A stretch of DNA of 53,691 nucleotides from a virus. Lineage: Duplodnaviria > Caudoviricetes. Numbering within the stretch: position 1 is the first letter of the stretch; each line of letters starts with the position of its first letter. A program made the position numbers and the translations under genes. Below, in pieces: positions 4,654-24,097 of this stretch. The notes under the pieces are model-generated. The model made no database searches. It was not told where the DNA came from and worked only from the letters and a program-made list of their open reading frames with translations. The DNA is taken from positions 1 through 53,691 of the IMG/VR virus record IMGVR_UViG_3300030430_003901; one strand, written 5' to 3'.

Positions 4654-4677
4654 AGTGTTTTGATTTTAAAATTTGAA

Positions 4678-4709
4678 CAAAGATACGAAAAAAATTCGAC
4701 ATATCCAAA
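4678..4709 (-). promoter_or_regulatory. Early-class promoter, copy 1 of conserved 32-bp motif
   Basis: TTTG-GATATGTCGAATTTTTTTCG-TATCTTTG matches the Bacteroidetes -33 TTTG / -7 TAnnTTTG layout. Confidence 0.8.
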
Positions 4710-4722
4710 TCCTTCCTGTTGG

Positions 4723-14176: not shown

Positions 14177-14198
14177 AGTGTTTTAGAATAAAGTTTGA

Positions 14199-14230
14199 CA
14201 ATATTACGAAAAGAAATCGACATACGCAAA
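14199..14230 (-). promoter_or_regulatory. Early-class promoter, copy 2
   Basis: TTTG-CGTATGTCGATTTCTTTTCG-TAATATTG. Confidence 0.75.
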
Positions 14231-14245
14231 TCTTTGATTAATTAT

Positions 14246-15486: not shown

Positions 15487-15603
15487 AGGGCAAGTCAGGA
15501 TTCGAACCTGCTTCTATAACTAAGGTATGTGTCAAATCAGTAGAGGTTTATGACTTCTCTACCTATACCACTCCCCTCCACCCATGTGGAGATTACTTGC
15601 CCT
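15487..15603 (-). ncRNA. tRNA-like element 1: acceptor-like stem + T-arm with about 85-nt structured insert, no anticodon arm
   Basis: AGGGCAAGT...CAGG-TTCGAAT-CCTG-ACTTGCCCT; internal hairpins CTCCAC/GTGGAG and GTAGAG/CTCTAC; D-loop-like AGTGG. Confidence 0.65.
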
Positions 15604-16460: not shown

Positions 16461-16503
16461 GGAGTTGGGGGACTCGAACCCCCTGTTTTTCCATTAAGAC
16501 TCC
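16461..16503 (-). ncRNA. tRNA-like minihelix 2
   Basis: GGAGTc-TTAATGGAAAAACA-GGGGG-TTCGAGT-CCCCC-aACTCC-ACA. Confidence 0.65.
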
Positions 16504-16530
16504 TTGCTTGGCAACCCACCAAACATTCGA

Positions 16531-16562
16531 CAATAATACGACAAAAAATCGACATATGCAAG
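16531..16562 (-). promoter_or_regulatory. Early-class promoter, copy 3
   Basis: CTTG-CATATGTCGATTTTTTGTCG-TATTATTG. Confidence 0.7.
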
Positions 16563-16596
16563 TTTTTGTCCAACTATTTTTTTAGTAACTTCGTTA

Positions 16597-18291: not shown

Positions 18292-18348
18292 ATACCTAAG
18301 AACCCGAAGGTTCTTTCGTGCCATTTCAGGACTACTCATCAGAGGTAT
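18292..18348 (-). ncRNA. Hammerhead ribozyme 1 (type I)
   Basis: ATACCT-CTGATGA-GTAGTCCTGAAATGGCAC-GAAA-GAACC-TTCG-GGTTC-TT/AGGTAT. Stems I and III perfect, stem II imperfect. CUU triplet, predicted cut between 18298 and 18297. Confidence 0.8.
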
Positions 18349-18738: not shown

Positions 18739-18757
18739 AGTGCTTTGAAAATTTCGA

Positions 18758-18789
18758 CAAACATACGAAAAGATTTCGACATATGCAAA
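18758..18789 (-). promoter_or_regulatory. Early-class promoter, copy 4
   Basis: TTTG-CATATGTCGAAATCTTTTCG-TATGTTTG. Confidence 0.8.
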
Positions 18790-18813
18790 TCTTTTTTTTG
18801 TCTGTCAGGTTAG

Positions 18814-18856
18814 GTTCAGGGAAGGGAATCGAACCCTTCTGCGTCCAACCCTGAAC
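18814..18856 (-). ncRNA. tRNA-like minihelix 3
   Basis: GTTCAGGG-TTGGACGCAG-AAGGG-TTCGATT-CCCTT-CCCTGAAC, a 13-bp coaxial stack. Confidence 0.7.
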
Positions 18857-18875
18857 TACAGGCATATATATATAA

Positions 18876-19334
18876 CTAAAAATCACCCTCTGCTACCTGA
18901 AAGCAGGGTATCCCATTCCTTCTCCACATCTTGACAACTTTATTCCTGTCATCAAAGACAGCAATTACTCTGTTCCTGTCAATGATTTGTGGGTCGTTCA
19001 ACCATGACTCCTTCAGTTCATCATCAGGCATCATGAGTTTGTCTAAAGGTCTCATAATCAGTGCCTTCCAAGGAACCTTATGCTCCTTCAACCACTTGAC
19101 AGTAGCGTCTTGTGTTGCTATACTTCTGCCACTAAATATATATATATCGTGGTTGAAATTGTCGAGTTCTCTCGCTGTCTTTATGACTGCGTGATTAGGT
19201 TTGTCCATGTCGATGTTCTTGGGGTCAAAAAATTTGTTCCAATCAATCTTACCTTCAGGAGTGCTTGAGTAATCTCTCCTGTCTTGGATGTCAGCGAGTG
19301 TGCCATCCAAATCAAAAATGTAAATGTCTCTCAT
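18876..19334 (-). CDS. Stand-alone HAD phosphatase, T4 PseT/PNK 3'-phosphatase-like domain
   Basis: IFDLDGTLAD, FSGR, LIMRP, FDDRNKVVKMWRRNGIPCFQVAEGDF; no kinase P-loop. Confidence 0.85.
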   Translation of the reverse strand: MRDIYIFDLDGTLADIQDRRDYSSTPEGKIDWNKFFDPKNIDMDKPNHAVIKTARELDNFNHDIYIFSGRSIATQDATVKWLKEHKVPWKALIMRPLDKLMMPDDELKESWLNDPQIIDRNRVIAVFDDRNKVVKMWRRNGIPCFQVAEGDF

Positions 19335-19555: not shown

Positions 19556-19596
19556 TTCAGGGGGTGGAATCGAACCACCCTGCAACCATTCCTGAA
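19556..19596 (-). ncRNA. tRNA-like minihelix 4
   Basis: TTCAGG-AATGGTTGCA-GGGTGG-TTCGATT-CCACCC-CCTGAA, a 12-bp stack. Confidence 0.7.
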
Positions 19597-19649: not shown

Positions 19650-20066
19650 TTATACATTTAACCTTCTCTCCTTGATAGCGTCACAGAGTATCTCTCTGTA
19701 CTCTTGGCTACCTCTCCTGATAGCACCCAAAACATCGCCCTCCAAGACCGAGGTCATGAACGAACCTTCACCTTTTTTCATGGTGAACTTCATATCTATT
19801 TCACCATTGTCAGTCAGGTAGTATGCACACCTCGAACCGATATAACTGTCTGACTCATAATTCAAGTTTGATAACCCATCCATATCATTTATATTTTTAC
19901 ACAGGGCTGTAGTTAGAACCACTAACATTTGGTATCCTTCCCAATTAACCAAGTATTCGTAACTCTTGTAATGACCTGTTGGATGCACACCATCTGCTAA
20001 AGGTCTGCTTAGACACTTCGGTACGAAGTACTCGTTGATTTCGATTTTATTTGATTGTTTTTCCAT
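19650..20066 (-). CDS. Hypothetical early protein
   Basis: (AT)n leader directly after hammerhead 2. Confidence 0.7.
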   Translation of the reverse strand: MEKQSNKIEINEYFVPKCLSRPLADGVHPTGHYKSYEYLVNWEGYQMLVVLTTALCKNINDMDGLSNLNYESDSYIGSRCAYYLTDNGEIDMKFTMKKGEGSFMTSVLEGDVLGAIRRGSQEYREILCDAIKERRLNV

Positions 20067-20088: not shown

Positions 20089-20139
20089 TCTGTTTCGTCC
20101 TTTTGGACTCATCAGGATAGGCACACACCTATCGACAGA
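20089..20139 (-). ncRNA. Hammerhead ribozyme 2 (type III)
   Basis: TCTGTC/GATAGG-TGTGTG-CCTATC-CTGATGA-GTCC-AAAA-GGAC-GAAA-CAGA. All core bases and three stems present. GUC triplet, cut between 20134 and 20133. Confidence 0.93.
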
Positions 20140-20157
20140 GGGGGTCTTGCGACCCCC
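20140..20157 (-). other. GNRA-tetraloop hairpin immediately 5' of hammerhead 2
   Basis: GGGGGTC-GCAA-GACCCCC. Confidence 0.75.
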
Positions 20158-20164
20158 ATCTCGA

Positions 20165-21121
20165 TTACTTCCCCTCGAGAACATAGTCGACTGCTCTCGC
20201 TGACTTTGTCAGAGCCGATACAACTGCTTTCGAGTCCTCCATCTTAACCCTCTTGACCCATCCATTGATGTATGCTTGAGAGTTGGTTTCATCGTCACCA
20301 CAGTCAGTACAGATACCTGAGAGACCTGATAACATCATCGCACCACTCTCAGCAATCAGTTCCTCAAAAGCATATCTGTCAGCACCAAAGAAGGTGAAAT
20401 CAACTATGCCCTCTCTCTTGAGTCTGCTCTCATGACCTGTTGAGTGAATCATCTCATGGAACAGCGTCTTGTAGTAGTTATCTATTTTCTTGAACTGCTT
20501 CTTTTCAGGCATCACTATTTTGTCCTCTGTTGGACTGTAGTACGCTCTGTTTTGGTTGACATCCTTGATGGTCAACTTCTTGTTCGCCTTCTTGTAATCT
20601 CTGATTACCTTTTCAGCACTCTCGATTGGAGTAATCTCAACTTCCTCTGTTGGAACTCTTTTTGGTTTGATGTCGCCCTCTATCTGAGATATATTATATA
20701 CTCTGAAGTAGAACATCGAGAAATTTGTGTATACATCACTCTCCTCACATTTTTCCTTCCTGATACACTCATCAAGTTTTGTGTACCACTTACCTGAACC
20801 TTTAGGTTTGAATACGCAGTAGGAAATTTTCCAATTGTACACCTCAGAGTATTTCGTCATCTCATCTGTTTTTACTCTGTAACCTGCTTTCACGATTGAG
20901 TTCAGAGTAGCCCATTCGTTGACTGTGTACTCTCTCGCCCTCATCACATGGTTGAGGAAAAACTGATTGATACCTCTGTACTCTCTACCTGAGAAGTGGT
21001 TGATGGGGTGATTGTCCCCTGATTTCCATGGTCGGAACCATTGTAGACCTTCCTTCTGAAGACCTTCGAGAAGTGCCTGTTTGACCTTCTCTGTTACATC
21101 GAATTTAGATTTTTTTGTCAT
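20165..21121 (-). CDS. ardC: ArdC-like antirestriction ssDNA-binding protein with zincin-like C-terminal domain
   Basis: WFRPW, N..SGREYRGIN, RAYYSP..D.I.MP, TLFHEMIHSTGH..RL.R, YAFEELIAE. Confidence 0.88.
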   Translation of the reverse strand: MTKKSKFDVTEKVKQALLEGLQKEGLQWFRPWKSGDNHPINHFSGREYRGINQFFLNHVMRAREYTVNEWATLNSIVKAGYRVKTDEMTKYSEVYNWKISYCVFKPKGSGKWYTKLDECIRKEKCEESDVYTNFSMFYFRVYNISQIEGDIKPKRVPTEEVEITPIESAEKVIRDYKKANKKLTIKDVNQNRAYYSPTEDKIVMPEKKQFKKIDNYYKTLFHEMIHSTGHESRLKREGIVDFTFFGADRYAFEELIAESGAMMLSGLSGICTDCGDDETNSQAYINGWVKRVKMEDSKAVVSALTKSARAVDYVLEGK

Positions 21122-21160
21122 TTTTCAAAATTTTGGCTTTCGCCTGTTATATATATATTT

Positions 21161-21209
21161 CCTGTTTCGCCTTCTTTGGCTCATCAGCACAGGGTCACCT
21201 GTGGACAGG
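21161..21209 (-). ncRNA. Hammerhead ribozyme 3 (type III)
   Basis: CCTGTC/CACAGG-TGAC-CCTGTG-CTGATGA-GCC-AAAGAA-GGC-GAAA-CAGG. GUC triplet, cut between 21204 and 21203. Confidence 0.92.
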
Positions 21210-21227
21210 GGGGAACCGAAGTCCCCC
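21210..21227 (-). other. cUUCGg hairpin immediately 5' of hammerhead 3
   Basis: GGGGGAC-TTCG-GTTCCCC. Confidence 0.75.
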
Positions 21228-21232
21228 TCAGA

Positions 21233-21427
21233 CTACGCTACTCTGTCCTCGAATCCATAGAGGTCGCCAAGCGTTTGAAAGATGTTGTCTCTCTCTACCT
21301 CATATTCCTCCTCTGTAATCCAACCTTGAGCAAATAGTTTCTCGAGGTTGTCCTCAAGGAAAAATAAGTGTCTTGCTTCTTGAGTAGTGTTATCTGTTGT
21401 GTTAGTATTTGTAATATTCGTATTCAT
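21233..21427 (-). CDS. First early gene, hypothetical (start moved to MNTNITN)
   Basis: The track start at 21481 lies inside the promoter; ATG at 21427 follows a leader shared with ardC. Confidence 0.6.
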   Translation of the reverse strand: MNTNITNTNTTDNTTQEARHLFFLEDNLEKLFAQGWITEEEYEVERDNIFQTLGDLYGFEDRVA

Positions 21428-21478
21428 ATCTGTTAATTTTTGTGGCTCTCGCCTGTTATATTTATTTAAATTCATGCT

Positions 21479-21509
21479 CAAATATAGTTCAATTTTCGTT
21501 CAATCCAAA
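21479..21509 (-). promoter_or_regulatory. Leading early promoter (Bacteroidetes primary-sigma type)
   Basis: TTTG-GATTGAACGAAAATTGAAC-TATATTTG. Confidence 0.7.
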
Positions 21510-22145: not shown

Positions 22146-22217
22146 TCAATTTTCATATAGTTAGTTGTTTTGATTAGGTAGAGATTGTTTTTAGTAGTGT
22201 TTTGACAATCTTGTAAT

Positions 22218-22249
22218 AAAGGGACCACCTCATAGGTCCCTTTTCCTTT
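22218..22249 (+). terminator. Intrinsic terminator
   Basis: AAAGGGACC-acctcata-GGTCCCTTT-TCCTTT. Confidence 0.65.
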
Positions 22250-22253
22250 GATA

Positions 22254-22455
22254 TGTGTTAACAATAATATAGTTTGTGTTGACTTTGTGTTGACTTTGTG
22301 TTAACTTTTTTTTACTTAACTAACTGATAATCAATTACTTAATAATATTTGTGTTAACTTTACAACTTAAAGGGGGTCATAGACGGAAATAAAATATAAT
22401 GTAATATAAAAGAGAGAGAGAGTATAAAGAATAAAACTTAACACTCAACACAAAA
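22254..22455. repeat. Iteron-like 11-bp repeats TTTGTGTTRAC, candidate origin
   Basis: Tandem copies at 22273, 22284, 22295; further copy at 22348; partial at 22254; inverted near-copy at about 22444-22454; IHF-like AATCAATTACTTA at 22329-22341. Confidence 0.65.
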
Positions 22456-22495: not shown

Positions 22496-24097
22496 ATGAA
22501 TCCAAAAGAACTACACTTCGATAGTGATGGACGAAATAAACTGCTTAGTGGAATTACGAAAATAGCGAAAGCAGTTAAGTCTACTTTAGGTCCACAAGGA
22601 AACACAGTCTTAATAGAATCACAAGAACATACAGGAGGAATTACTGTGACGAAAGATGGAGTAACAGTTGCTAAATCAATAAACCTGTTGGACTCAGTTG
22701 AGAATCTTGCAGTAAGAATAATGAAAGAAGCCGCAGATAAAACCGCAACCTCAGCCGGTGATGGAACTACAACTGCTATAGTATTAACTGAATCTTTAGT
22801 TGCTCATGGTCTACAACACTTTAATGACCAAGTCACAAATAGAACTGAAGTATTAAAATTATTGCAGAGTGAATGTGATAATATAATTAAAAGACTAAAG
22901 AAGGATTCAAAAAAAATAACAGGCAAGAAACTAAAAGATGTTGCGGTCATCTCAGCAAACAATGACGATAAGATTGGTAATTTAATTTACAAGGTTTATA
23001 GTGAGGTTGGTAAAGATGGTATAGTAACGGTTGAGAAATCAAAGAACCATGAAACTTATTATGAAACCACACAGGGAATGAAAATAGATAGAGGATATAG
23101 TTCACCTTTATTTATAAACAATCAAAAACATGATGAGTGTATTTATGAAGACATAAAAGTTTTAGTAGCCGATGCAGAGATATCAAACATACTACAAATT
23201 GAAAATGCACTAAAGCCACTAATAAATAAAAAAGAAAAACTATTAATCATTGCACCATGCACAACTCAGTTTACAAATACTCTTGCTGCGAATGTAATGA
23301 AGAATGGTCTAAAGCTTGTAAGCATAGCACCTCCTGAGTTTGGTTACAGACAACATGAACTTATGCAAGATATTGCTTTGTCAGTTGGTGCAACATATTT
23401 TAGCGAGAAGACAGGTGACGATTTAAGTCTCATCCGCTATGACGACTTGGGTCATTGTGCCAAGGTGATAGTTGGTCGTGATTCTACAGTCGTCATAAAA
23501 GATGAGCATGATAAAAAATCTTCTGAGATAAAAGATAGAGTAGATGAACTTTGGGTTGCATATGAAAACTCAAAAAGAAAAGAAGATAAATCATTTATAC
23601 AAAAAAGAATAGCTTCACTAACCGGAGGTATAGGTGTTATGTTTGTGGGAGGCAACACAGACTTAGAACAGAAAGAACTATACGATAGAGTGGACGATGC
23701 AGTTTGTGCTGTGAAGTCAGCTTTGGAAGAGGGTATACTTCCGGGTGGTGGACTTAGCTTATATCATTTAGGGAATGAATATGAAGTAGCAACTATAGAT
23801 GAAGAAAATTTAGAAAAAAAAATTGCTTACGCAATTTTAGCAAAAGCTCTACAATCTCCCTTAGAACAAATACTTTCCAACGCAGGATATGATAATGTTT
23901 ATCTTGGAAAGAAAACAGAAAAGAACGAAGGGTTCGATGTTAAGAATGAGAGATGGGGAAATATGTATGACATGGGAATCATTGACCCTATGAAAGTAAC
24001 AAGGTCAGCTTTGCAAAACGCAATAAGCGTTGCTGTAACTTTACTTTCAACCAACGCAATAGTAACTATTAAAAGAAAACAAGATGCCAATATTTAA
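22496..24097 (+). CDS. groEL: Phage-encoded chaperonin GroEL
   Basis: AVKSTLGPQG, VTKDGVTVAK, AGDGTTTA, RVDDAVCA, EEGILPGGG, GIIDPMKV; lacks the GGM tail. Confidence 0.97.
   Translation: MNPKELHFDSDGRNKLLSGITKIAKAVKSTLGPQGNTVLIESQEHTGGITVTKDGVTVAKSINLLDSVENLAVRIMKEAADKTATSAGDGTTTAIVLTESLVAHGLQHFNDQVTNRTEVLKLLQSECDNIIKRLKKDSKKITGKKLKDVAVISANNDDKIGNLIYKVYSEVGKDGIVTVEKSKNHETYYETTQGMKIDRGYSSPLFINNQKHDECIYEDIKVLVADAEISNILQIENALKPLINKKEKLLIIAPCTTQFTNTLAANVMKNGLKLVSIAPPEFGYRQHELMQDIALSVGATYFSEKTGDDLSLIRYDDLGHCAKVIVGRDSTVVIKDEHDKKSSEIKDRVDELWVAYENSKRKEDKSFIQKRIASLTGGIGVMFVGGNTDLEQKELYDRVDDAVCAVKSALEEGILPGGGLSLYHLGNEYEVATIDEENLEKKIAYAILAKALQSPLEQILSNAGYDNVYLGKKTEKNEGFDVKNERWGNMYDMGIIDPMKVTRSALQNAISVAVTLLSTNAIVTIKRKQDANI

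What the first reader, a model, noticed from the sequence alone, without database searches (positions are those of the whole stretch)
20089..21227. ardC is bracketed by two type III hammerheads
Seen: HH3 lies 40 nt upstream of the ardC ATG and HH2 about 25 nt downstream of its stop. Both have full CUGAUGA/GAAA cores and GUC triplets. Their stems differ in sequence but pair fully (CACAGG/CCTGTG vs GATAGG/CCTATC; GCC/GGC vs GTCC/GGAC), which is natural covariation. Loop I starts with U and loop II ends with A, as needed for the activating loop-loop contact. Inference: cleavage excises a monocistronic ardC RNA of about 1.07 kb with 5'-OH and 2',3'-cyclic-P ends. Those ends are RtcB-type ligation substrates, so a circular anti-restriction mRNA is conceivable.
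Basis: partly seen in the sequence, partly recalled or inferred. Interest (0 to 1): 0.85.

Follow-up and report, generated by a model that had tools for sequence, protein, structure and literature searches.

The report
Hammerhead ribozymes flank phage ardC gene
Two real self-cleaving hammerhead RNAs sit on either side of an anti-restriction gene in a marine phage, an arrangement already described for other phages, and they most likely cut a long early transcript into separate hairpin-capped messages rather than make a circular RNA.

Summary
Two type III hammerheads lie on the minus strand at 21209..21161 and 20139..20089. Their predicted cuts are at 21204|21203 and 20134|20133, 39 nt before the ardC start and 25 nt after its stop. 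Both score just under Rfam's cut-off (37.4 and 46.2 bits; cut-off 48.5). A model built from 44 phage hammerheads scores the upstream one, which was not in the training set, at 52.6 bits. Orthologous copies with compensatory changes flank ardC in related phages.

A third hammerhead, type I, lies at 18348..18292.

The arrangement is a known kind. Perreault et al. 2011 described hammerheads flanking single prophage genes, including the anti-restriction gene ardA, and looked for circular products without finding any.

Possibly new, since two literature searches found no description: in this hammerhead subclass a stable hairpin abuts the cleavage strand in 62 of 76 cases, and the next 30 nt are unstructured. 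This fits terminator-independent, hairpin-capped 3' ends.

tRNA-like minihelices occupy other gaps of the same gene block.

The circular mRNA idea has no support here. No RNA-level data could be obtained.

The parts
21479..21509 (-). Promoter-like site (TTTG, 19 nt, TAnnTTTG) upstream of the first gene of the unit. It is the likely start of the transcript that carries ardC.
   Evidence: Pattern match: 9 matches in the window against 4.4 expected, and 3 of them lie in minus-strand intergenic gaps. The consensus is recalled as Bacteroidetes-type and does not come from any call. Inference only.
21233..21481 (-). 82-aa ORF upstream of ardC
   Evidence: ORF list. Weak SHOCT match at 24.7 bits, below the cut-off of 27.
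21210..21227 (-). 7-bp G+C-rich hairpin with a UUCG loop. It ends directly against stem III of the upstream hammerhead and would be the 3'-terminal structure of the upstream cleavage product.
   Evidence: Sequence; part of the MFE fold; class-wide association.
21161..21209 (-). Type III hammerhead upstream of ardC. Predicted cut between 21204 and 21203.
   Evidence: RF00008 37.4 bits. R1 52.6 bits, E 2e-11, not in the training set. The MFE is the canonical three-stem fold. Identical in L003 and orthologous in L004.
21135..21151 (-). 17-nt leader motif with a small GNRA hairpin, repeated at 21460..21444 in the leader of the preceding ORF
   Evidence: 2 matches against 0.05 expected; repeat family D19. 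Function unknown.
20165..21121 (-). ardC (318 aa): ArdC N-terminal domain plus a zincin metallopeptidase domain with HExxH
   Evidence: Pfam; PHROG 7245.
20140..20157 (-). 7-bp G+C-rich hairpin with a GCAA loop that abuts stem III of the downstream hammerhead. It would cap the 3' end of the ardC RNA.
   Evidence: Sequence; fold; orthologous hairpins with GAAA loops in L004 and L005.
20089..20139 (-). Type III hammerhead downstream of ardC. Predicted cut between 20134 and 20133.
   Evidence: RF00008 46.2 bits. Orthologues in L004 and L005 carry compensatory changes in stems I and II. Covariation in alignment A1.
19650..20066 (-). 138-aa ORF of unknown function. Its AT-rich leader starts right after the downstream hammerhead.
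   Evidence: ORF list; no Pfam or PHROG match.
18292..18348 (-). Type I hammerhead between the 129-aa ORF and the 440-aa ORF. Predicted cut between 18298 and 18297 (triplet CUU).
   Evidence: Core and stems read. No Rfam match. Three other distinct homologues in IMG/VR have different, fully pairing stems I and III.
19556..19596 (-). tRNA-like minihelix (acceptor-like stem plus T arm) in the next intergenic gap, preceded by a long hairpin
   Evidence: T-loop motif; sequence; fold.
18814..18856 (-). tRNA-like minihelix after the PNKP-type phosphatase gene
   Evidence: T-loop motif; sequence. The acceptor stem appears in the MFE fold but the T arm does not. Weak tmRNA T-arm hit.

Best explanation
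The two elements are active type III hammerhead ribozymes. Together with a type I hammerhead 1.8 kb further on, they cut a polycistronic early transcript of a marine phage into gene-length mRNAs as it is made.

Each type III unit is a three-part module:
1. A stable hairpin sits directly against the cleavage strand.
2. The ribozyme follows.
3. Then comes an unstructured AT-rich leader and the next start codon.

After the cut, the upstream message (for example ardC) ends in a hairpin plus a 6-nt tail carrying a 2',3'-cyclic phosphate. That is a terminator-like, exonuclease-resistant 3' end made without stopping transcription. The downstream message starts with a 5'-OH and the folded ribozyme body, followed by a free leader.

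ardC is thus uncoupled in stability and translation from its neighbours. It is one of many different genes treated this way.

Shown here: the motifs, their covariation, their conservation at orthologous sites and the hairpin association.
Inferred: cleavage in vivo, the protective role of the hairpin and polycistronic transcription.
For: Core and stems:
- All core positions and the stems were read directly.
- RF00008 gives E 4.9e-07 and 1.6e-04 window-wide.
- R1 gives 52.6 bits for the untrained copy.

Covariation in 44 phage hammerheads of the same architecture:
- 98.5% of cells are paired, against 72.5% in shuffles.
- All 6 stem I pairs covary.
- 0 of 500 shuffles reach the observed covariation score.

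Orthologous copies:
- Upstream of ardC in L003.
- On both sides of ardC in the complete relative G002.
- Downstream of ardC in G003.
- These copies carry compensatory changes.

Hairpin and leader:
- A hairpin lies directly 5' of the cut in 62 of 76 unique members.
- With the conservative control, 56 of 71 members have the hairpin against 216 of 1000 stop-codon flanks without a hammerhead (Fisher p 1e-22).
- The hairpin ends 0-3 nt from the CUGUC in 66 of 76.
- The 30 nt after the ribozyme are unstructured: median -0.1 kcal/mol, and only 2 of 76 are stable.

Context:
- 22 of 34 intervals between two hammerheads hold one ORF that fills the gap.
- No minus-strand terminator-like site lies between 21.5 and 18.9 kb.
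- Perreault et al. 2011 showed such arrays cleave in vitro and in E. coli, one of them around ardA (passages read).
Against: - No RNA-level evidence was obtained. The two metatranscriptome runs hold only one 169-nt contig inside ardC.
- Both hammerheads score below Rfam's gathering score.
- In the nearest-neighbour model the canonical fold of the downstream copy is 4 kcal/mol above the MFE.
- Promoter-like motifs inside the gene block show that not every gene depends on processing.
- The host and its RNases are unknown.
- In Bacillus a 5'-OH made by the glmS ribozyme triggers decay rather than protection (recalled).
- The hairpin could instead serve ribozyme folding, by stacking on the short stem III or by insulating it from the coding sequence.
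Confidence: 0.68

Rival explanations
1. Circular ardC mRNA. After both cuts, the 5'-OH and 2',3'-cyclic phosphate ends of the 1070-nt RNA are joined, either by a host RtcB or by the reverse hammerhead reaction. The result would be an exonuclease-proof, translatable circle.
For: - The end chemistry is right for RtcB (established knowledge).
- The 3' tail of the excised RNA can pair with the stem III strand of the upstream ribozyme body, because both copies share the same stem III sequence.
- RtcB is present in a Bacteroides control genome.
Against: - The end pairing is only 4 bp, -4.0 kcal/mol.
- The shared stem III is a lineage trait. In an unbiased sample stem III varies: 14 of 57 have this sequence.
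- There is no RtcB or RNA ligase in the phage record.
- Perreault et al. could not detect circular or spliced products from tandem arrays.
- A conserved hairpin at the 3' end and a mix of type I and type III units fit linear products better.
- The title listings of one literature search showed no natural phage case.
Confidence: 0.05
2. Decay or timing switch. Cleavage is there to shorten, not lengthen, the life of the flanking messages, or it is conditional. Anti-restriction and other early functions would then be expressed in a brief pulse.
For: - The glmS precedent, where a ribozyme-made 5'-OH recruits RNase J1 (recalled).
- Perreault et al. raise regulated cleavage for phage hammerheads.
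- The genes are early-type genes.
Against: - The cores are full consensus and the loop-loop contact positions are conserved, as in fast constitutive hammerheads.
- No ligand-binding extension is present.
- The 3' hairpin and the structured 5' end look protective.
Confidence: 0.12
3. Translation insulator. The cut frees each AT-rich leader from upstream coding sequence and ribosome traffic, so that initiation without a Shine-Dalgarno sequence is context-independent. This is what the engineered RiboJ element does.
For: - Leaders after the ribozyme are unstructured.
- The next start codon lies within 45 nt in 24 of 34 intervals.
- No Shine-Dalgarno-like sequence is visible before the starts read.
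- A 2026 paper reports ribozymes used for translation initiation in RNA viruses (abstract only).
Against: - It does not explain the hairpin on the upstream side.
- Many members of the class in other phages do carry GGAG-type sites.
- It overlaps with the main explanation rather than excluding it.
Confidence: 0.1
4. Selfish or relic cassettes, or chance motifs. The hairpin-plus-hammerhead units spread between phage intergenic regions without benefit to the phage, or no longer cleave.
For:
- The bracketed genes vary.
- Both window copies are under Rfam's cut-off.
Against: - Stems covary while staying fully paired.
- Orthologous positions are kept at 57-85% ArdC protein identity.
- Placement relative to stop and start codons is precise.
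Confidence: 0.04

Closest known systems
Tandem hammerheads flanking single genes in prophages (Perreault et al. 2011, PMC3088659), especially the Agrobacterium tumefaciens triple array around ardA
   Same: - Several hammerheads on one strand bracket individual genes of a phage-type early region.
- One bracketed gene is an anti-restriction gene.
- The proposed role is processing of long phage transcripts into gene-length mRNAs.
- The circular-product idea was already raised there (passages read).
   Different: - Here the gene is ardC, not ardA.
- The phage is an uncultured marine one.
- Types I and III are mixed.
- The main text of that paper does not mention a hairpin next to the cleavage strand: 0 occurrences of 'terminator' or 'stem-loop', and its 2 uses of 'hairpin' are about other things. 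Its supplements were not seen.
Rfam RF00008, hammerhead ribozyme type III
   Same: - Full core.
- GUC triplet.
- Open stem III with capped stems I and II.
- Full-length alignment to the model, positions 1-54 of 54.
   Different: - Scores of 37.4 and 46.2 bits are under the gathering score of 48.5.
- Loop II is 4 nt shorter than the model consensus.
Shared gene neighbourhoods of twister, hammerhead, pistol and related ribozymes (Weinberg et al. 2015, as summarised in the review PMC6765202)
   Same: Different ribozyme classes occupy equivalent places near the same kinds of genes. Near ardC homologues I found hammerhead, pistol, twister-like and RAGATH-1-like hits in 8 of 14 loci.
   Different: - Only the pistol hits exceed Rfam's cut-off.
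- I could not read the 2015 paper (not held), so I do not know whether ArdC-type genes are on its list.
Engineered ribozyme devices: the RiboJ insulator and Tornado circularisation (recalled, no call)
   Same: - RiboJ: a hammerhead plus a hairpin is used to standardise a downstream leader.
- Tornado: flanking ribozymes plus RtcB give circles.
   Different: - In RiboJ the hairpin lies downstream of the ribozyme. Here it lies upstream, on the released 3' end.
- Tornado needs a long stem joining the ends. Here only 4 bp are available.

Membership tests
Hammerhead ribozyme, type III | Conserved core: CUGAUGA, GAAA, the A15.1-U16.1 pair and an NUH cleavage triplet | tested here: met
   Both copies have every core position and a GUC triplet.
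Hammerhead ribozyme, type III | Three stems around the core, with stem III open and stems I and II capped by loops | tested here: met
   cmscan alignments over model positions 1-54. The MFE of the upstream copy is this fold. For the downstream copy stems I and II are in the MFE, and the full canonical fold is 4 kcal/mol above it.
Hammerhead ribozyme, type III | Stems supported by covariation among relatives | tested here: met
   Alignment A1 of 44 sequences: 98.5% of cells paired, 9 of 15 pairs changed on both sides, and 0 of 500 shuffles reach the score. Slid controls give 34-49% paired. Four stem III pairs and the core were fixed by the search pattern and say nothing.
Hammerhead ribozyme, type III | Score at or above Rfam's curated gathering score | tested here: not met
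   37.4 and 46.2 bits against 48.5. This is a curated threshold, not a structural feature. E-values are 1.6e-04 and 4.9e-07 for the window.
Hammerhead ribozyme, type III | Loop I to loop II tertiary contact positions | tested here: inconclusive
   The first loop I base is U in at least 90% of 44 sequences and the last loop II base is A in 44 of 44. That these two bases form the contact is recalled from structural work and was not tested.
Hammerhead ribozyme, type III | Site-specific self-cleavage | not testable with these tools
   No raw RNA reads were available. The contigs give no ends.
Gene-flanking hammerhead arrays of phages (Perreault 2011) | Two or more hammerheads on the coding strand that bracket a single gene or short gene block in a phage genome | tested here: met
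   The window is a virus record. There are three hammerheads on the minus strand, and ardC fills the interval between two of them.
Ribozyme-plus-ligase RNA circles (retrozyme or Tornado type) | Ends held together by a stem or a re-formed ribozyme, a ligase at hand, and junction-spanning RNA | tested here: inconclusive
   Only 4 bp join the ends. No RtcB or Rnl in the phage record. The host is unknown. No joint was seen in contigs, which cannot exclude one.
ArdC anti-restriction protein | ArdC N-terminal ssDNA-binding domain followed by a zincin metallopeptidase domain | tested here: met
   Pfam ArdcN 55.4 bits and MPTase-PolyVal 101.1 bits, both over their cut-offs. The HExxH motif is visible in the frame read.

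The most novel reading that the evidence does not exclude
The excised 1070-nt ardC RNA is closed into a translatable circle. The 3' tail would dock into the upstream ribozyme body, which shares its stem III sequence, and the ends would be sealed by the reverse hammerhead reaction or by a host RtcB. The phage would then have an exonuclease-proof anti-restriction message. A less bold but likelier reading is that phage early operons are punctuated by interchangeable cutters (type I and III hammerheads, pistol, twister, tRNA-like minihelices), all arranged so that the upstream product ends in a stable hairpin.
Probability: 0.05. Interest if true: 0.85.

Novelty: new member of a known kind. Interest (0 to 1): 0.4.

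Why it matters
What bacterial and phage self-cleaving ribozymes are for is still an open question; the review read says so. This locus does not change the picture by itself, because ribozyme-bracketed anti-restriction genes have been in print since 2011.

What it adds is a testable design rule. In this large phage subclass the cut is placed right after a strong hairpin and right before an unstructured leader. In the same gene block, tRNA-like minihelices sit where ribozymes might be expected. If the hairpin proves protective, these modules are a terminator-free way to give each early gene its own mRNA ends and lifetime. That would also be useful as a compact part for operon engineering.

Tried and rejected
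Rfam default scan: nothing passes the gathering scores, so the hammerheads appear only in E-value mode.

Similar DNA in GenBank phages: no match.

RNA evidence:
- One search for runs and one laying were made.
- The two metatranscriptome runs hold a single 169-nt contig inside ardC (20411-20576).
- The DNA runs cover the whole stretch.
- No joints, loose ends or end pile-ups were reported.
- Contigs cannot show RNA ends, so this says nothing for or against cleavage or circles.

Type I hammerhead: Rfam has no match for it even in a 171-nt search. It rests on manual reading and on homologues.

Idea that the shared stem III sequence signals trans-docking between copies: rejected. An unbiased pattern shows stem III varies and covaries across phages.

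Idea that hammerhead brackets mark ArdC in general: rejected. 0 of 10 bracketed ORFs from other phages have any Pfam match and none resembles ArdC by BLASTP. PHROGs gave only unknown-function families, for 2 of 8.

A promoter between the upstream hammerhead and ardC: none fits.

Sigma-70 and terminator scans: not enriched over shuffles.

ARAGORN: no tRNA in the window.

Minihelix folds: these are not clearly better than shuffles, with z from -0.7 to -2.9. No minihelix was found in the closest relatives L003-L005.

Papers: Weinberg 2015, Felletti 2017 and Hammann 2012 are not held. Supplements of Perreault 2011 (figures S1-S3, alignments) were not seen and may show hairpins or the circle tests.

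Correction: my notebook says 9 of 14 ArdC loci have ribozyme hits. The recount is 8 of 14.
Full report
WHAT IS THERE

The window is a single IMG/VR virus record of 53,691 bases, estimated 89% complete. It recurs in marine metagenomes. Genes from about 21.9 kb down to 4.2 kb run on the minus strand and are of replication or early type:
- ArdC
- a PNKP-type HAD phosphatase
- a DnaA-like HTH protein
- an exonuclease
- a primase-helicase and a helicase

Reading the minus strand confirms the finding to the base.

After the stop of an 82-aa ORF come, in order:
- a 7-bp G+C hairpin with a UUCG loop (21227..21210)
- a type III hammerhead (21209..21161, C17 at 21204)
- 39 nt of AT-rich leader
- ardC (21121..20165)

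After the ardC stop come, in order:
- 7 nt
- a 7-bp hairpin with a GCAA loop (20157..20140)
- a second type III hammerhead (20139..20089, C17 at 20134)
- 22 nt of AT-rich leader
- a 138-aa ORF

IS IT MORE THAN CHANCE?

Rfam's default scan lists nothing, because both copies fall just under the Hammerhead_3 gathering score: 46.2 and 37.4 bits against 48.5. In E-value mode they are the two best hits of the whole window, at 4.9e-07 and 1.6e-04, with full-length alignments.

From 44 equal-length, distinct members I built alignment A1 and model R1.
- R1 scores the upstream copy, which was not in the training set, at 52.6 bits (E 2e-11).
- R1 finds no further type III copy in the window with filters off.
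- On A1, 98.5% of cells pair against 72.5% in shuffles.
- All six stem I pairs and two stem II pairs change on both sides.
- Sliding the partners drops pairing to 34-49%.
- The core and four stem III pairs were fixed by the pattern, so only stems I and II and the outer stem III pair carry evidence.
- The first base of loop I (U, at least 90%) and the last base of loop II (A, 44 of 44) were not fixed and are conserved.

RELATIVES

Fourteen IMG/VR loci encode ArdC relatives at 35-85% identity.
- L003 (85% identity) has the identical upstream hammerhead; its contig ends inside ardC.
- G002, the complete 57-kb relative that contains L004 (59% identity), has type III hammerheads on both sides of ardC and two type I hammerheads further down the same strand.
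- G003, which contains L005 (57% identity), starts inside ardC. It has the downstream type III copy and two type I copies.
- The orthologous downstream copies differ from the window's in stem I (several pairs) and stem II (one pair swapped) but stay paired.

So wherever a flank of ardC is visible in this lineage, a hammerhead is there.

In the more distant ArdC loci I found other ribozyme classes nearby:
- pistol, 67.5 bits, over its cut-off (L007, L008)
- a twister-P1-like hit, 43 bits, under its cut-off (L011)
- a RAGATH-1-hammerhead-like hit at the ardC stop, 36 bits, under its cut-off (L013)
- a type I hammerhead hit, 30.9 bits, under its cut-off (L016)

In all, 8 of 14 loci have a hit and 6 have none.

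A THIRD HAMMERHEAD

At 18348..18292 the minus strand carries a type I hammerhead with these parts:
- an open 6-bp stem I
- a full core
- a bulged stem II
- a 5-bp stem III with a UUCG loop
- the triplet CUU, with the cut at 18298|18297

It lies between the stop of a 129-aa ORF and the start (18276) of a 440-aa ORF. Rfam does not see it.

A scan for its stem II word found five stretches, which reduce to three further distinct sequences. Their stems I and III are different and fully paired, and their triplets are CUC, GUC and AUC.

THE HAIRPIN RULE

In the CUGUC subclass, 62 of 76 unique members have a hairpin in the 30 nt before the cleavage strand at or below -8.3 kcal/mol. That value is the 5th percentile of random 30-mers from the same loci. 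The hairpin ends 0-3 nt from the strand in 66 of 76. The 30 nt after the ribozyme are unstructured, with a median of -0.1 kcal/mol.

Against a stricter control the figures are 56 of 71 against 216 of 1000. The control took the best of six windows after stop codons that are not followed by a hammerhead.

In an unbiased sample of type III hammerheads, the hairpin is present in 13 of 14 CUGUC members and 18 of 43 others. It is therefore strongest in this subclass.

The hairpin sequences differ widely and often carry UUCG or GNRA loops, which argues for a role as RNA.

In type I units the ribozyme's own stem III hairpin ends 2 nt before the cut. In both permutations, then, the upstream product finishes with a stable hairpin and a short tail.

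I found no description of this in Perreault et al.'s main text or in two literature searches. The held library is incomplete and supplements were closed.

HOW IT MOST LIKELY WORKS

A promoter-like site at 21509..21479 (the consensus is recalled) would start a transcript through the 82-aa ORF, ardC and the next genes. No terminator-like site interrupts it. Each hammerhead folds and cuts as it emerges. The consequences would be:
- The ardC message would run from 21203 to 20134.
- It would begin with the folded ribozyme body and a 5'-OH.
- It would end with a hairpin plus six bases and a 2',3'-cyclic phosphate.
- By established knowledge, such a 3' end is a poor substrate for 3' exonucleases and cannot be polyadenylated.

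This reading is inference; no RNA ends could be examined.

The published precedent is close. Perreault et al. 2011 report hammerheads that flank single genes in prophages and propose processing into gene-length mRNAs. They show cleavage in vitro and in E. coli for an array around ardA. They state that they could not detect spliced or circular products. A 2019 review notes that unrelated ribozyme classes share gene neighbourhoods and that the reason is unknown.

THE CIRCLE

The end chemistry would suit RtcB, and the 3' tail can pair with the upstream ribozyme's stem III strand. Against this:
- The pairing is only 4 bp, -4.0 kcal/mol.
- The shared stem III is a lineage trait, not a general one.
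- The phage record has no RtcB, Rnl2-type or T4 Rnl1-type ligase (the last family rang in no control genome).

I keep this idea at about 5%.

OTHER BRACKETS

Among the fetched loci, 34 intervals lie between two type III hammerheads on one strand (the window and L004 included, not de-duplicated). In 22 of them, one ORF fills the gap with 3-42 nt before it and 13-57 nt after it. Ten such ORFs were tested: 0 of 10 have a Pfam match. By BLASTP they form recurrent families of about 300, 190 and 80 residues, unrelated to ArdC. The bracket is therefore a general device of these phages and not an ardC feature.

VERDICT

The monocistronic-release inference is reasonable and has precedent. The circular mRNA is unsupported. 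The added value lies in the hairpin-ribozyme-leader module and the co-occurring tRNA-like elements, both of which give concrete experiments for an open question.

Noticed in passing
window 19596..19556, 18856..18814, 16503..16461, 15602..15488 (all minus strand): Four tRNA-like elements lie in intergenic gaps of the same gene block. Each has a T-loop word flanked by an acceptor-like stem. There are 4 matches against 0.74 expected, and 0 of 100 shuffles reach 4. ARAGORN calls none a tRNA. Folds show the minihelix or a cloverleaf-like shape, but the z-scores are weak. They may be RNase P or RNase Z processing sites that do the same job as the hammerheads. A long hairpin precedes the one at 19.6 kb.
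   Followed up: partly
L007 2791-2857, 3876-3925, 4262-4310: In a distant ArdC phage (39% identity) the order is: a pistol ribozyme (67.5 bits, over the cut-off), a short ORF, ardC, then a T-arm minihelix that overlaps the ardC stop. A second minihelix follows the next gene. This is a mixed 'punctuation' around the same gene.
   Followed up: partly
window 19334..18876 (-): A stand-alone 152-aa PNKP-type HAD 3'-phosphatase domain (Pfam 9.7e-31, PHROG 'polynucleotide kinase') lies in the same transcription direction. No kinase domain or RNA ligase was found in the record. It could act on the cyclic-phosphate ends that ribozymes make. Untested.
   Followed up: partly
window 18794..18741, 16567..16514, 14235..14182, 4714..4661 (minus strand): A 54-nt repeat family occurs in 4 copies, 65-83% identical to the reference copy. 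Two of the copies carry a TTTG ... TAnnTTTG pattern upstream of genes. These are probably promoters of a Bacteroidetes-type host; the consensus is recalled. Start codons read here lack Shine-Dalgarno sequences.
   Followed up: partly
window 21151..21135 and 21460..21444 (-): A 17-nt motif with a small GNRA hairpin is repeated in the leaders of ardC and of the preceding ORF: 2 matches against 0.05 expected. It is present in L003 but not in L004. Function unknown.
   Followed up: no
L041, L049, L084, L125 and L042, L043, L063, L064, L083, L133: Two protein families of unknown function, about 300-336 aa and about 190 aa, recur between pairs of type III hammerheads in other marine phages. Neither has a Pfam match. 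The ~190-aa family (L042) matches only unknown-function PHROGs, and the two ~300-aa members tested match none.
   Followed up: partly
window 22496..24097 (+): A phage-encoded chaperonin (Cpn60/TCP-1 family, 3e-55) opens the plus-strand block. Repeated GTYAACACAAA words and a bidirectional terminator-like hairpin lie in the divergent region 22200-22350.
   Followed up: no
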